From the IMG/VR virus record IMGVR_UViG_2721755676_000001: a DNA stretch of 64,000 nucleotides. The stretch is one strand, 5' to 3'. The notes beneath the pieces were generated by a model. It ran no database searches and was not told the origin of the DNA. It worked only from the letters and a program-made list of their open reading frames with translations. The translations under genes were made by a program, and so were the position numbers. Within the stretch, counting starts at the first letter, position 1, and each line of letters begins with the position of its first letter. This DNA comes from a virus (lineage: Duplodnaviria > Heunggongvirae > Uroviricota > Caudoviricetes). Below are positions 11,541 to 60,938 of the stretch, piece by piece.

Positions 11541-11794
11541 CCCTCCAGATCGTATATTGGCGTAGATAGAATCTACGCCTCCTCAAAATAGCTCTCATAG
11601 CGTTCTACAGTGATCCTGTCTTATTTTTAGTCATACAGACAAGCAAAGTTGCGCCACAATAAATAGGTATATACTTACTTATAAATTTTGTATATTAAGA
11701 CGCTCGTTTCATTCCTAACATACCGTTATGCATAGTTGTTTACCTTCTCATTGCTCTTAAAATTTGTATCAAAATAACCACAAAGGAAAAACAC

Positions 11795-24219: not shown

Positions 24220-24777
24220 ATGACAACGATTGTTGCAGGCATCGATATCGAGTCTACGGGACTGGATTTCCTTGCTGGTCATAAAATTATTGAAATCGCA
24301 ATTACCCGCTATGAACTGGAGACACAGAGACATATTGATAGTCTGGAGATGCGTTTTAACCCTCGCAGAAACATAGATCCGAAAGCTCAAGCCGTTCATG
24401 GCATTTCATTGGAACAGCTCGCAGCTGAACCTTTGTTGTCAAATCATGCCAGCGAAATTGGCGCTTATATGGGGGCATGTAGTGTGTGGGTTGCTCATAA
24501 CGGCGAAGCATTTGATATACCATTTATTCGACACGAGTTTTCAGGGTATGGAGTAAGACTGCCAGAAGTTCCTGTTATAGATACTATGTTATCGGGATTG
24601 TGGGCCACAGAAGACGGTAAACGTCCCCGCCTTGAAGAGTTGGCCTTCTCTCTTGGCTTTATATACGATCATGCCAAAGCACATAGTGCCTTATATGACA
24701 CAAACTTAATGATGCAATGCTTCTTTAAGGCACGTAATAAGTACGGATTTTTTAAATTACCCTCTGAAATTGTGTAA
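24220..24777 (+). CDS. DnaQ-like 3'-5' exonuclease (DEDDh)
   Basis: Exo I GIDIESTG, Exo II VAHNGEAFDIPF, Exo III HSALYDT. Confidence 0.75.
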   Translation: MTTIVAGIDIESTGLDFLAGHKIIEIAITRYELETQRHIDSLEMRFNPRRNIDPKAQAVHGISLEQLAAEPLLSNHASEIGAYMGACSVWVAHNGEAFDIPFIRHEFSGYGVRLPEVPVIDTMLSGLWATEDGKRPRLEELAFSLGFIYDHAKAHSALYDTNLMMQCFFKARNKYGFFKLPSEIV

Positions 24778-24782
24778 AACAA

Positions 24783-24819
24783 AAGCCTACTTTAAAAAGT
24801 TTAAAGTAGGCTTTTTTTT
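24783..24819 (+). terminator. Rho-independent terminator
   Basis: AAGCCTACTTTAAAAAGTTTAAAGTAGGCTT followed by TTTTTTT. Confidence 0.65.
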
Positions 24820-25745: not shown

Positions 25746-25928
25746 CGTTCCCCTACTTAAAATAAAGCCCATAGAGAGCTTTATAGTACTGGGTAAGTCA
25801 ATCACATACCCAGCACCACAAAAACGCGCCAGAGAGCTTCTCGTTTGCATTTCTGGCGCGTTTTATTTGATTGCCAGACATAAAATCAAATGCAAAAATA
25901 GGTATTTACTTACCTATCGAGAAAGAAG

Positions 25929-26522
25929 ATGATTGCAGCCGAAAAAATCAAACAGCGAAAGCGTGACAACTCTCTTCGTGACCTCTGGAGAACACCTGAC
26001 TGGCTGTTTTCTGCCATTCAACGTTATCTTGGAGTGACATTTGATGTTGACGTTGCCTGCAACAAGGACAATGCAAAGCTGCCTAATTTCATAGGCGTTG
26101 AGCGTGATGCTTTGAAATCTGAATGGGGACAGCCAGGTACAATTGCCTTCCTCAATCCACCCTACTCCAAAATCTACCCCTGGATTGATGCGGCTATACG
26201 TGAGCAGGCTCGCGGAGTTACAACAGTGATGCTAATTCCTCAATCCCTAGATACAAAGTGGTATGAGCGTGCAACAGAGTGTGCGAATGAGACGATTATT
26301 CTGTCTGGTGGCCGCGTAGCGTTTGTCGAGCCTGACGTAAATCTGGGTCAGGTAGAAGTAAACATCAACCCAGGTGGCAGTATGCTCGTTGTTTTTCGAG
26401 GATTCTGTCAGGACGCTGGGCACTCTATAAGCAAGATCCCTTTGGACGTCATGAAAAGTCTGGGAGGGTATGATCCTGCGAATGTGATCAGGAAAAAAAG
26501 ACCATCAAAGAAGGCTGCTTAG
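25929..26522 (+). CDS. Phage-type DNA N6-adenine methyltransferase
   Basis: Motif FLNPPYS (NPPY) and DLWRTPDWLF typical of phage Dam-like N6A methyltransferases. Confidence 0.7.
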   Translation: MIAAEKIKQRKRDNSLRDLWRTPDWLFSAIQRYLGVTFDVDVACNKDNAKLPNFIGVERDALKSEWGQPGTIAFLNPPYSKIYPWIDAAIREQARGVTTVMLIPQSLDTKWYERATECANETIILSGGRVAFVEPDVNLGQVEVNINPGGSMLVVFRGFCQDAGHSISKIPLDVMKSLGGYDPANVIRKKRPSKKAA

Positions 26523-26544
26523 TTTGTTCTGGCGTCTGTAATTA

Positions 26545-26602
26545 GCCTGCTTCTGTATATATAAATAACTACATATTAATTATTAATATACGGAAGCAGG
26601 CT
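26545..26602. terminator. Long imperfect hairpin (arms CCTGCTTCTGTATATAT / ATATACGGAAGCAGG); second copy at 51824-51870
   Basis: Inverted repeat with AT-rich loop; likely bidirectional terminator or protein-binding site. Confidence 0.5.
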
Positions 26603-26707
26603 GTTTTGTATCAGAGACTCCAGACCTGAACATCACAACAGAATCCACTAGAACCCCTTCCCAGACGCTTTAAAATCGATTTTATGAACCACTTTAAGGA
26701 AACCAAC

Positions 26708-26938
26708 ATGTCATACCCGACTAATGTCGTTGCGCTCGTAGAGAGCGATTTTCTGGCCCAGGCTCGTGAAATGATGAAAGATCGTGAGCAGGCTTTCAAC
26801 TTGTACGAATGGGCAATTAAGTGCTTGCATCTTGGCGAGCATCGCGAACTTGTTGAACAGCTTTTAGGTGAGTTGATCAATGAGGTGTTTGCCTTGAATG
26901 TTCAACTACATGGTAGAGAAAATAATCAATCACAATGA
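26708..26938 (+). CDS. Hypothetical small protein (76 aa from MSYPTNVV)
   Basis: In-frame ATG inside track ORF 26684..26938. Confidence 0.4.
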   Translation: MSYPTNVVALVESDFLAQAREMMKDREQAFNLYEWAIKCLHLGEHRELVEQLLGELINEVFALNVQLHGRENNQSQ

Positions 26939-27520
26939 TAGATAAGTACAAACTATTCATAAAGTGAATTGTAAGTGCTAAGATCTGATAGTTTCCAGTC
27001 GTAGACTGGAGACTCGACCTGATGGGTGGGGGTAAGCGTCACTGGCGTCAGGTTTAAAAAAGCTCACTACCAGCGTAGAACTGGTGCCGTTTAGGAGTCG
27101 GGGAAGGGGGAACCAAAGTGAGCAGAGACAAGGGTCACTTTATGATTGTCGAGTCTGGGGTGTTTCGAGAGGTTGAATCCAGTACTCCCCTTCATAAAGT
27201 GTGGGAAGATCTCGGTTCTGGGGTGCTGTCATCCATAACTTCCCAAGTCTAAGCTGGCAGTAGACTTAGACCATAACTTTTCAGGTTATGAAACGACCAG
27301 GTTGGTGAGAGATTTTTATACTCACCTCCCTGGGAGAGTATTACCTGAAAAGACAACCTCTCACTTCGTTCGAGGTGAACTTCACTCACTTCGTTCGTTC
27401 AGTTCAGGTTTATAAAAACCTGTTCTGGGAAGTAATTTGTTTATTTTAATAATTATTAACACGCACGCGTGTGCGCACGCGCGAGGAAAAATCGGCGCGG
27501 CGCTTGATTCAGGAGTTTAT

Positions 27521-30335: not shown

Positions 30336-30476
30336 TACAGCACCAGTCGACAGGGGGCGACAGCCCCCATTTTTACGCCTTAAATCTGCTGTAACGCCTA
30401 TGAATGCAGCTTTTATGCCTTTTCAAGTTTGCGATAATTACACCAATCAGAAAACAAATTATTTAATGGTGTAATT

Positions 30477-60864: not shown

Positions 60865-60938
60865 GTTAATCGGTAGGTATATACTTACTGTTAGCGCAAT
60901 GAATGCGTAGAATTAACGGAAAAAGGAGTTTTCCATCA

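What the first reader, a model, noticed from the sequence alone, without database searches (positions are those of the whole stretch)
26545..26602. Conserved long hairpin present twice (also 51824-51870)
Both copies share arms CCTGCTTCTGTATATAT and ATATACGGAAGCAGG around an AT-rich loop; one follows the Dam-like methyltransferase gene, the other precedes the packaging module. Could be a bidirectional terminator, a regulatory protein site or a small repeated element.
Basis: seen in the sequence. Interest (0 to 1): 0.45.

Follow-up and report, generated by a model that had tools for sequence, protein, structure and literature searches.

The report
Triplicated palindromic terminator hairpin of SSU5-like phage-plasmids
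The two hairpins are real and belong to a set of three near-identical palindromes that every SSU5-like phage-plasmid carries at the borders of its gene modules; they most likely stop transcription running from one module into the next, which is a useful but fairly ordinary function.

Summary
Both hairpins exist (26544-26602 and 51815-51869), they are far beyond chance, and they fold strongly on either strand.

The window is an SSU5-like phage-plasmid, 99% identical to Escherichia phage CMS-2020a. Complete relatives carry a third copy outside the window. The three copies lie:
- before terS (A);
- before the replication module (B);
- after the Dam-like methylase gene (C).

The arms CCTGCTTCYGTATAT/ATATACRGAAGCAGG are almost invariant across Escherichia, Salmonella, Klebsiella, Enterobacter and Yersinia plasmids. 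Copies within a genome evolve in concert. Each core sits inside a 105-135 bp imperfect palindrome.

Best explanation, confidence about 0.5: they are homologous long-stem intrinsic terminators that insulate transcription modules.
- B and C are followed by conserved T-tracts.
- Published RNA-seq of pLF82/Cyrano shows a drop of more than 100-fold across B.
- Copy A (51815-51869) has a poor T-tract and sits just upstream of a promoter-like unit.

Three things remain unexplained: the extreme sequence conservation, an outer inverted repeat that extends beyond the T-tract, and the SSU5 reference record breaking inside copy A. A protein-binding or packaging role is therefore not excluded. No Rfam family or paper describes the element. 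Interest is moderate to low.

The parts
26544..26602 (+). Copy C core hairpin: 17-bp arms AGCCTGCTTCTGTATAT / ATATACGGAAGCAGGCT around a 25-nt AT-rich apex with a short inner stem
   Evidence: Conserved after the Dam gene in about 70 of 80 related loci.
26603..26612 (+). T-rich tail GTTTTGTATC directly after the copy C stem, the putative U-tract of an intrinsic terminator
   Evidence: Tails CTGTTTT or CTTTTT are conserved at copy C in relatives.
26527..26537 (+). Left half of the outer inverted repeat of copy C (TTCTGGCGTCT). It pairs with 26615-26624.
   Evidence: TCTGG lies at -18 to -21 in nearly all A and C copies. The extended fold is -41.6 kcal/mol, z -6.6.
26615..26624 (+). Right half of the outer inverted repeat of copy C (AGACTCCAGA). 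It lies beyond the T-tract.
51815..51869 (+). Copy A core hairpin: arms CCTGCTTCTGTATATAT / ATATATACGGAAGCAGG, and an apex that is itself a palindrome (AATAAGT-A-ACTTATT) with a 3-nt loop
   Evidence: I5, I13. Conserved in 75 terS-upstream loci. 55/55 identical to copy B of CP053388.1. The SSU5 and Cyrano records break after the base equivalent to 51851/51852.
51793..51799 (+). Left outer repeat GGTCTGG of copy A, starting 3 nt after the stop codon of the 88-aa ORF
   Evidence: The extended fold is -48.4 kcal/mol, z -10.1.
51884..51890 (+). Right outer repeat CCAGACC of copy A. It abuts the -10-like CCTAAT of the downstream promoter-like unit.
51889..51946 (+). Promoter/operator-like unit downstream of copy A: CCTAAT, then two copies of the palindromic motif AGAAAACAAGTTGTTTA (51905-51921 and 51930-51946)
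   Evidence: D4. It aligns with nine other such units in the window.
25929..26522 (+). Dam-family N6-adenine methyltransferase gene, the last gene before copy C
   Evidence: PF05869, E 2.9e-38
26708..26938 (+). 76-aa ORF (phrog_5343, unknown function), the first gene after copy C
   Evidence: Equivalent to CYRAN_80.
51524..51790 (+). 88-aa ORF (phrog_900, annotated as a DNA-binding domain protein in Cyrano), the last gene before copy A
51986..53874 (+). terS-like (51986-52618) and terL (52618-53874) genes, the start of the late/structural module after copy A

Best explanation
The two hairpins are two of three homologous long-stem Rho-independent terminators, acting as transcriptional insulators, that are fixed in SSU5-like phage-plasmids. 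Nearly all genes run on the + strand. The three copies divide the replicon into three blocks:
- late/structural, lysis and maintenance genes (A to B);
- replication, recombination and nucleotide metabolism genes (B to C);
- a regulatory and miscellaneous block (C to A).

Proposed mechanism (inferred). When RNA polymerase transcribes a copy, the GC-rich base of the stem (CCUGCUUCYG/CRGAAGCAGG) and the AU-rich upper stem fold into a hairpin of about -30 kcal/mol. At B and C a U-tract follows immediately, so the transcript is released. This keeps constitutively expressed plasmid and moron genes from reading into lytic modules, and lets each module start from its own promoter just downstream.

Copy A (window 51815-51869) lacks a good U-tract. 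It is probably a weak or leaky terminator, or a pause or RNA-end structure, placed in front of the late promoter-like unit. Copy C (window 26544-26602) has the features of a functional terminator.

The near-identity of the three copies is ascribed to gene conversion between copies and template switching within the palindrome. This too is inferred.

Shown: the structure, its conservation, the T-tracts, and the gene-level RNA drop at B.
Inferred: termination at A and C, and the reason for the sequence identity.
For: 1. Stable hairpins: -29.6 and -30.5 kcal/mol, z about -7.
2. All three copies are intergenic, 20-25 nt after the stop codon of a + strand gene and 100-170 nt before the next + strand gene.
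3. T-tracts directly follow the stem and are conserved across diverged relatives: B has TCTTTT(T) in almost all variants, and C has CTTTTT or CTGTTTT.
4. Published RNA-seq of E. coli LF82/pLF82 (Cyrano), S1 table of PMC9928086, gives values as log2(FPKM+5). CYRAN_30, immediately upstream of B, reads 5.7-10.4. CYRAN_31, immediately downstream, reads 2.3-4.2 in all 10 samples. In most conditions that is a drop of more than 100-fold. B is the only strong hairpin in that 193-nt gap.
5. Across A, expression falls 2-4-fold in the conditions where the upstream gene is expressed: CYRAN_123 at 6.5-6.6 against CYRAN_1 at 4.9-5.6.
6. Pairing is kept through double changes: C-G to T-A at stem position 8 in Klebsiella-type C, position 5 in one B variant, and position 6 in L125.
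7. A promoter-like unit of a family repeated about 10 times in the window follows copy A. This is the expected layout for a terminator-then-promoter border.
8. There is no upstream A-tract at B or C, so the signal is directional, matching gene orientation.
Against: 1. The arm sequence itself is nearly invariant in all three copies and in all genera: positions 1-3, 7 and 11 are 100% conserved in 35 distinct arm pairs. The flanks are only about 75% identical. A generic terminator needs structure, not sequence.
2. Stem position 9 occurs in all four states (T-G, C-G, T-A, C-A). Wobble pairs show no consistent + strand bias by event type. The raw count on non-independent unique arm pairs is 32 + strand wobbles against 12 - strand wobbles, and copy C favours the - strand.
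3. An outer inverted repeat, GGTCTGGGAG ... CTCCCAGACC, flanks every copy. Its 3' half lies downstream of the T-tract, so a terminated RNA would not contain it.
4. Copy A has a T-poor tail: CTTCGTAAG, TTCTGAAT or CTCTCAAAC.
5. The stem-loop of 55-59 nt, with a 21-27 nt apex, is much longer than usual. The simple terminator scan does not call it.
6. The RNA evidence is gene-level only, comes from a relative, and is informative only for copy B, which lies outside the window.
Confidence: 0.5

Rival explanations
1. The element is a double-stranded DNA palindrome recognised by a phage- or plasmid-encoded protein that binds as a dimer or tetramer. It would act as an operator, insulator, centromere-like site or recombination site. 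Any transcription termination would be a by-product.
For: - The primary sequence of both arms is near-invariant across genera and across the three copies.
- The apex of A and B is itself a palindrome, AATAAGT-N-ACTTATT, whose centre base is the variable one. That is typical of two-fold symmetric DNA sites.
- The outer inverted repeat GTCTGGGAG/CTCCCAGAC extends beyond the T-tract.
- No isolated half-sites occur elsewhere, so the palindrome is the unit.
- DNA-binding genes lie next to the copies: the 88-aa protein and terS at A, the parA operon before B in Cyrano, and ParB-like genes 2-3 kb upstream of A.
Against: - No binding protein is identified.
- The distance between parA and B varies. It is 2.3 kb in SSU5, with unrelated genes in between.
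- The conserved directional T-tracts at B and C are not explained.
- Half-site changes are not concerted across all copies of a genome. Klebsiella-type A has left arm CCTGCGTCTG while C has CCTGCTTTCG.
Confidence: 0.2
2. Copy A is the packaging site (cos or pac) at which the SSU5-type terminase recognises and cuts concatemeric DNA. Copies B and C would be related but uncut pseudo-sites.
For: - The linear reference record of virion-derived phage SSU5 ends ...CTTATTA and starts AATATATACGGAAGCAGG. It is therefore broken at the apex/right-arm junction of copy A, with no base missing. A random break falling within this 55-nt stretch has a probability of about 5e-4.
- Copy A lies 116 nt upstream of terS, the usual place for cos or pac.
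- Copy A is the copy without a T-tract, and in SSU5 it is the most perfect palindrome.
Against: - The Cyrano record, broken 1 nt away, is the plasmid pLF82 re-annotated for comparison with SSU5, so it is not independent evidence.
- Draft contigs also end inside copy B (L165, L178), which shows that these repeats and palindromes break assemblies.
- In CP053388.1 copy B is 55/55 identical to the window's copy A. A terminase recognising the core would then also cut 31 kb away.
- A symmetric cut around the palindrome centre would give self-complementary ends.
- TerL is Terminase_6N/6C type with only distant (25-41%) relatives, which gives no indication of cos packaging.
Confidence: 0.1
3. The hairpins are RNA processing or stability elements, for example RNase III substrates like the homologous intergenic hairpins of T7. 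They would define and protect mRNA 3' ends between modules rather than release RNA polymerase.
For: - The continuous helix is about 24 bp: a 17-bp lower stem, an asymmetric internal loop and a 5-7 bp upper stem. With the outer stem the structure reaches -42 to -48 kcal/mol. This is the size range of RNase III substrates (established knowledge, not tested here).
- The outer stem would form only in read-through RNA, which would explain its conservation.
- There are several homologous copies between genes.
Against: - There is no direct evidence.
- The RNA-seq drop at B is equally explained by termination.
- There is no strand-specific wobble bias.
- Processing alone would not abolish downstream RNA more than 100-fold unless the downstream product were degraded.
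Confidence: 0.1
4. The element is a relic of a small palindromic mobile element (MITE-like), or a neutral recombination linker that marks where modules were joined, with no selected function of its own.
For: - The whole element is a 105-135 bp imperfect palindrome, the size and shape of ERIC- or Correia-type elements (from memory).
- Copy B sits exactly at a mosaic junction. The left flank is unrelated among genomes, and homology starts at the hairpin edge.
- Copies homogenise within genomes.
Against: - There are always three copies at the same three syntenic sites.
- It is never found in host chromosomes except in one integrated SSU5-like fragment: 1037 of 1039 places in E. coli genomes are on plasmids.
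- Only enterobacterial genomes carrying such plasmids hold it (apart from one MAG labelled Bacillota, context not examined).
- Strong conservation over genera, and conserved T-tracts, argue for selection.
- No inversions or deletions between copies were seen in about 20 genomes.
Confidence: 0.05

Closest known systems
Rho-independent (intrinsic) transcription terminators
   Same: - GC-rich stem base, with a T-tract directly after the stem at copies B and C.
- Location just after stop codons of co-directional genes.
- A large fall in downstream RNA at copy B.
   Different: - The stem-loop is 55-59 nt, with a 17-bp stem and a 21-27 nt structured AT-rich apex.
- There are three homologous, nearly sequence-identical copies.
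- Copy A lacks a U-tract.
- An outer inverted repeat reaches beyond the T-tract.
Homologous intergenic RNase III hairpins of phage T7 (R0.3, R1.1 and others; from memory)
   Same: Several related hairpins of about 50-60 nt lie between genes of one phage. Each has two stems separated by an internal loop, and they define mRNA ends.
   Different: Cleavage by RNase III was not tested. The SSU5-type copies carry T-tracts and are far more sequence-conserved among genera.
PeSL (promoter-early stem-loop) cassettes of T4-type phages (Arbiol et al. 2010; from memory)
   Same: A repeated regulatory cassette combining a stem-loop with a promoter, found at mosaic junctions of plastic genome regions. Copy B marks such a junction, and copy A is followed by a promoter-like unit.
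   Different: The order is reversed here: hairpin first, then promoter. There are only three fixed copies, and no evidence that the cassette moves genes.
Palindromic intergenic repeat elements acting on transcripts (ERIC/IRU of enterobacteria, Correia elements of Neisseria; from memory)
   Same: An imperfect palindrome of 100-135 bp in transcribed intergenic DNA, folding into a long RNA hairpin that can terminate or be processed.
   Different: It is not dispersed. There are three syntenic copies on one replicon family and none in host chromosomes. No sequence similarity was noted, and there is no Rfam hit.
Phage cos sites (lambda cosN) and the protelomerase target telRL of N15-type phage-plasmids
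   Same: A partly two-fold symmetric site next to the terminase genes. The 55-bp palindrome is similar in size to telRL. The SSU5 record ends inside it.
   Different: - There are three copies, where one would be expected.
- The replicons are circular plasmids with no protelomerase annotated.
- Physical ends were never mapped.

Membership tests
Intrinsic (Rho-independent) terminator | Stable GC-rich RNA stem-loop on the sense strand | tested here: met
   -29.6 and -30.5 kcal/mol, z about -7, on the + strand for both window copies. The stem base CCTGCTTC/GAAGCAGG is GC-rich.
Intrinsic (Rho-independent) terminator | U-tract (several T within about 8 nt) immediately 3' of the stem | tested here: inconclusive
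   Met for window copy 1/C (GTTTTGTAT) and for copy B in relatives (TCTTTT). Not met for window copy 2/A (CTTCGTAAG, 3 T in 8). The built-in scan misses all of them because it allows loops of 3-8 nt only.
Intrinsic (Rho-independent) terminator | Placed downstream of a gene on the same strand | tested here: met
   22 nt after the Dam stop codon, 24 nt after the stop of the 88-aa ORF, and 25 nt after CYRAN_30
Intrinsic (Rho-independent) terminator | Transcripts actually end at the site | tested here: inconclusive
   Gene-level RNA-seq from PMC9928086 shows a drop of more than 100-fold across B, 2-4-fold across A, and is uninformative at C because both neighbours are silent. No base-resolution 3' ends are available.
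Phage cos/pac packaging site | Physical ends of virion DNA map to the site | tested here: inconclusive
   The SSU5 record breaks inside copy A. However, Cyrano is a re-oriented plasmid record, and draft contigs also break in copy B. No end-mapping data were found.
Phage cos/pac packaging site | Unique recognition sequence in the genome, next to the terminase genes | tested here: not met
   Only copy A is next to terS. The core occurs three times, and in CP053388.1 copy B is 55/55 identical to the window's copy A.
Protelomerase target (telRL) of linear phage-plasmids | Protelomerase gene and a linear replicon with hairpin ends | tested here: not met
   No protelomerase appears in the annotation tables of Cyrano or SSU5. 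The one topology read here, CP053388.1, is circular, and the hairpin is intact across the junction in the window.
Dispersed palindromic repeat / MITE (ERIC, Correia type) | Many dispersed copies, including in host chromosomes, with presence/absence polymorphism | tested here: not met
   Three syntenic copies per replicon. In 5426 E. coli genomes, 1037 of 1039 places are on plasmids, and the chromosomal one lies in an integrated SSU5-like fragment.
RNase III processing site | Cleavage by RNase III within a helix of about 20 bp or more | not testable with these tools
   The helix length is compatible. There are no cleavage data.
Any curated RNA family (Rfam 15) | Score at or above the family's gathering threshold | tested here: not met
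   Only generic hairpin hits to miRNA precursor models, at 16-26 bits against thresholds of 62-211.

The most novel reading that the evidence does not exclude
The triplicated palindrome of 55 bp (105-135 bp with its outer repeat) is primarily a DNA site, not a plain terminator. Copy A would be the point at which SSU5-type terminase cuts, or at least assembles. Alternatively, all three copies would be bound by a dedicated phage-plasmid protein that defines chromosome-like domains and the borders at which modules and cargo are exchanged. Under this reading, termination is a secondary effect.
Probability: 0.2. Interest if true: 0.6.

Novelty: new member of a known kind. Interest (0 to 1): 0.3.

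Why it matters
SSU5-like phage-plasmids, which include pHCM2 of S. Typhi, pMT1 of Y. pestis and pLF82/Cyrano, are common. The element is in about 800 PLSDB plasmids and in about 5% of complete E. coli genomes. These plasmids carry resistance genes and toxin-antitoxin cargo.

Knowing where their transcription units end helps explain how a replicon keeps lytic genes silent while it expresses maintenance and cargo genes only 200 nt away.

Copy B marks the fixed right-hand edge of the variable cargo region. That makes it a practical landmark for annotation and for engineering.

The three near-identical palindromes also break short-read assemblies. They probably explain where the SSU5 reference record was opened.

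If instead the site proved to be the packaging or a protein-binding site, it would give the first handle on DNA packaging and domain organisation in this family.

Tried and rejected
1. Rfam search of both regions at a permissive E-value gave only sub-threshold miRNA-precursor look-alikes.
2. Literature searches for SSU5 with cos, PhageTerm, cohesive ends, terminator, hairpin or palindrome found nothing relevant. The SSU5 genome note is not held.
3. I first took the Cyrano record start, 1 nt from that of SSU5, as independent evidence of physical ends. I rejected this because Cyrano is plasmid pLF82, re-annotated and compared with SSU5, and its virome coverage did not exceed plasmid contamination.
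4. Inferring the packaging mode from TerL failed. It is Terminase_6N/6C type, and its nearest relatives outside the family are 25-41% identical and of mixed packaging types.
5. A strand test by G-U wobble counts was not decisive. The raw count was 32 against 12 in favour of the + strand. The counts are not independent, copy C goes the other way, and by event type it is about 6 against 5.
6. A loose pattern scan of viral contigs (CCTGCTTC N30-55 GAAGCAGG) returned mostly chance hits. The AT-rich ones were all A, B or C copies in either orientation, not extra copies.
7. Candidate degenerate extra copies in the window (42154-42170 and 1914-1930) and in SSU5 (43712) are single arms inside coding sequence with 2-4 mismatches, and are taken as chance.
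8. RNAalifold on 17 diverse A copies supports only the inner stem. The outer stem is lost in the alignment because of indels.
9. An IHF site in the apex was considered. No WATCAA core is present, by inspection.

Full report
**Observation**

Both hairpins are present.
- The 17-mer CCTGCTTCTGTATATAT occurs exactly at 26546 and 51815. Its imperfect reverse complement occurs at 26584-26600 and 51853-51869. That is 4 matches against 0.11 expected, and no shuffle reached 4.
- The repeat finder reports 17-nt arms, 94% complementary, at 26544-26560/26586-26602 and at 51815-51831/51853-51869.
- The two copies are 82% identical over 57 nt.
- As RNA they fold at about -30 kcal/mol on the + strand and about -27 on the - strand, with z-scores of -6 to -7.
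- As DNA they fold at about -17 kcal/mol, z about -6.3.

The context is as described. Copy 1 begins 22 nt after a PF05869 Dam-family methylase gene. Copy 2 lies between an 88-aa ORF and terS/terL.

**What the replicon is**

The window is an SSU5-like phage-plasmid:
- 99.4% identical to Escherichia phage CMS-2020a (CP053388.1);
- 98% to Cyrano (OV696614);
- about 78% to Salmonella phage SSU5;
- about 76% to Klebsiella relatives.

Cyrano is the plasmid pLF82 of E. coli LF82 (PMC9928086).

**A third copy, and three fixed positions**

Scanning the complete Cyrano and SSU5 sequences showed a third copy outside the window, at Cyrano 31159-31211 and SSU5 33458-33513. It is also present in the window's closest relative, CP053388.1.

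I call the copies:
- A, before terS (window 51815-51869);
- B, after the variable lysis/toxin-antitoxin/parA region and before the helicase-primase module;
- C, after the Dam gene (window 26544-26602).

I fetched 75-80 related loci for each position from IMG/VR.
- In about 24 genomes for which two or all three loci could be assigned, every locus examined except one (B of genome 2579778564) has a copy. All copies are in the same orientation.
- Looser scans found no further copies.

The element is restricted to this replicon family:
- It is in 799 PLSDB plasmids of Klebsiella, Escherichia, Enterobacter, Yersinia, Salmonella, Citrobacter and Cronobacter.
- It is in 259 of 5426 complete E. coli genomes, with 1037 of 1039 places on plasmids.
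- The single chromosomal site is an integrated SSU5-like fragment.
- Among GTDB species representatives it is found in Kluyvera, Buttiauxella and Y. pestis, plus one MAG labelled Bacillota whose context was not examined.

**Anatomy and conservation**

*Arms.* The arms CCTGCTTCYGTATAT / ATATACRGAAGCAGG are almost invariant in all three copies and in all genera. Stem positions 1-3, 7 and 11 are 100% conserved in 35 distinct arm pairs. Neighbouring intergenic DNA is only about 75% identical.

*Compensatory changes.* A few double changes keep the pairing:
- C-G to T-A at position 8 in Klebsiella-type C;
- position 5 in one B variant;
- position 6 in L125.

Position 9, however, occurs in all four states.

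*Apex.* The apex of A and B is itself a palindrome, AATAAGT-N-ACTTATT, and its centre base is the variable one. In E. coli-type C the apex has diverged.

*Concerted evolution.* Copies evolve in concert.
- In some genomes all three share one apex variant.
- In CP053388.1, copy B is identical to the window's copy A over all 55 nt.
- Gene conversion between copies, and template switching within quasi-palindromes (a known mutational process, see the abstract of PMC3820800 listed), are the likely causes. This is inference.

*Outer repeat.* Each core sits inside a larger imperfect palindrome.
- (G)GTCTGGGAG lies 18-21 nt upstream, and (CT)CCCAGAC(C) lies 19-35 nt downstream, in nearly all A and C copies and in many B copies.
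- Segments of 116-141 nt fold at -42 to -48 kcal/mol, with z-scores of -6.6 to -10.

*Mosaic junction at B.* The DNA to the left of copy B is unrelated among genomes, and homology begins at the hairpin edge.

**Evidence on function**

*T-tracts.* Directly after the stem:
- B has TCTTTT(T) in almost every variant.
- C has CTTTTT or CTGTTTT.
- A has T-poor tails: CTTCGTAAG, TTCTGAAT or CTCTCAAAC.

There is no A-tract upstream of B or C, so the signal is directional and matches the gene orientation. Only the E. coli-type A has an upstream TTTAAAGA, which on the - strand would read TCTTTAAA.

*RNA-seq.* The per-gene table of PMC9928086 gives values as log2(FPKM+5).
- Across B: CYRAN_30 reads 5.7-10.4 and CYRAN_31 reads 2.3-4.2 in all ten samples. 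That is a fall of well over 100-fold in most conditions. B is the only strong structure in that 193-nt gap.
- Across A: the fall is 2-4-fold where the upstream gene is expressed.
- Across C: both neighbours are silent in lysogens, so the data say nothing.

*Downstream of A.* A promoter-like unit follows: CCTAAT plus two copies of the palindromic motif AGAAAACAAGTTGTTTA. It aligns with about nine similar units elsewhere in the window. This gives a terminator-then-promoter layout at the head of the late operon.

**Interpretation**

The best reading is that the three copies are homologous long-stem intrinsic terminators. They insulate the three transcription blocks of the replicon.
- It is best supported for B, which is outside the window.
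- It is plausible for C (window copy 1), from its structure and T-tract.
- It is weakest for A (window copy 2), which may be leaky or may serve another purpose.

I put this at about 0.5. Several features go beyond what a terminator needs:
- the near-invariant primary sequence;
- the absence of a consistent + strand wobble bias;
- the outer repeat whose 3' half lies past the T-tract;
- the DNA-like two-fold symmetry of the apex.

**The packaging lead**

The deposited SSU5 genome ends ...CTTATTA and begins AATATATACGGAAGCAGG. It is broken at the apex/right-arm junction of copy A, with no base lost.

This could mean that the virion DNA ends lie there. Three points weaken that reading:
- The Cyrano record, broken 1 nt away, is a re-oriented plasmid sequence.
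- Draft contigs also end inside copy B.
- The core is not unique.

TerL gives no guidance on packaging mode. I could find no end-mapping data. I rate a cos or pac role for A at about 0.1, and a protein-binding DNA site in general at about 0.2.

**Comparison with known things**

The element works most like an intrinsic terminator. In layout it resembles:
- repeated phage regulatory hairpins, namely the T7 RNase III sites and the PeSL cassettes of T4-type phages;
- palindromic intergenic elements such as ERIC or Correia.

Those comparisons are from memory and were not tested. It is not a dispersed repeat. It matches no Rfam family. It is not a telRL-type site: there is no protelomerase and the one record topology I read (CP053388.1) is circular. 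No paper in the held library mentions it.

**Verdict**

This is a real, strongly conserved, family-specific element. It is most probably a trio of related terminators marking module borders. I class it as a new member of a known kind with some unexplained features. Interest is about 0.3.

Noticed in passing
window 30411-30465, 33370-33424, 36993-37047, 39489-39543, 39973-40027, 40928-40982, 41640-41694; also 18787, 29006, 29735, 51905, 51930: A family of about 10 promoter-like units. Each has a GATAAT-like hexamer followed by the 13-bp palindrome AAACAAnTTGTTT (motif AGAAAACAAGTTGTTTA), and lies upstream of many + strand genes. It looks like a set of lytic promoters sharing one operator, comparable to the scattered C1 operators of P1 (comparison from memory).
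   Followed up: partly
window 51946-51977: A separate small GC-rich hairpin, GAGCGCATGGACGCGCTC, followed by TGTGTGTTTT. It lies between the second operator-like motif and the terS ribosome-binding site and is conserved in all relatives. It may be a leader terminator or attenuator of the late operon, which would hint at antitermination control.
   Followed up: partly
SSU5 record NC_018843.1 ends (L006 3260-3299 and L004 1-20); Cyrano OV696614 ends (L003 8340-8379, L001 1-20): Both deposited linear records are opened inside hairpin copy A, at the apex/right-arm junction and 1 nt apart. It is unclear whether this reflects true virion ends, an assembly break at the palindrome, or, for Cyrano, copying of the SSU5 start.
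   Followed up: partly
window 7240-9010: At least 14 copies of an iteron-like repeat, ACCGCTGACAGCATAC, in two clusters next to the RepA-type initiator gene (Cyrano CYRAN_63). This is the plasmid replication origin region.
   Followed up: no
window 42778-42811 and 43274-43307: Two 88%-identical copies, 496 nt apart, of a canonical terminator-like hairpin, AAAGCGCCCATAGTGGGCGCT followed by a T-rich tail. This is a second, ordinary, repeated terminator type in the same replicon.
   Followed up: no
window 24777-24819: A 20-bp inverted repeat, 95% complementary, AAACAAAAGCCTACTTTAAA/TTTAAAGTAGGCTTTTTTTT with a 3-nt loop, right after the DnaQ-like exonuclease gene. It has an A-rich 5' side and a T8 run on the 3' side, so it is a textbook bidirectional terminator candidate.
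   Followed up: no
window 11664-11679, 25899-25914, 32163-32178, 60874-60889; Cyrano L001 about 31296-31312 (reverse orientation): A 16-nt motif, TAGGTATATACTTACT, recurs just upstream of gene starts, for example 15 nt before the Dam start codon. In reverse orientation it also lies before CYRAN_31, downstream of hairpin B. Its function is unknown.
   Followed up: no
window 27118-27252 (equivalent to CYRAN_81): This 44-codon ORF, 520 nt downstream of hairpin C, is one of the most highly expressed loci of the plasmid in lysogens: 12-fold above background in PMC9928086. Its neighbours are silent. It could be a small protein, a toxin or a small RNA.
   Followed up: no
relatives: left flank of hairpin B (for example L163-L242, locus positions about 1240-1330): The DNA immediately left of copy B differs completely between otherwise collinear genomes, with at least 10 unrelated flanks. 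Copy B therefore marks the fixed right-hand edge of the variable cargo region of SSU5-like phage-plasmids.
   Followed up: partly
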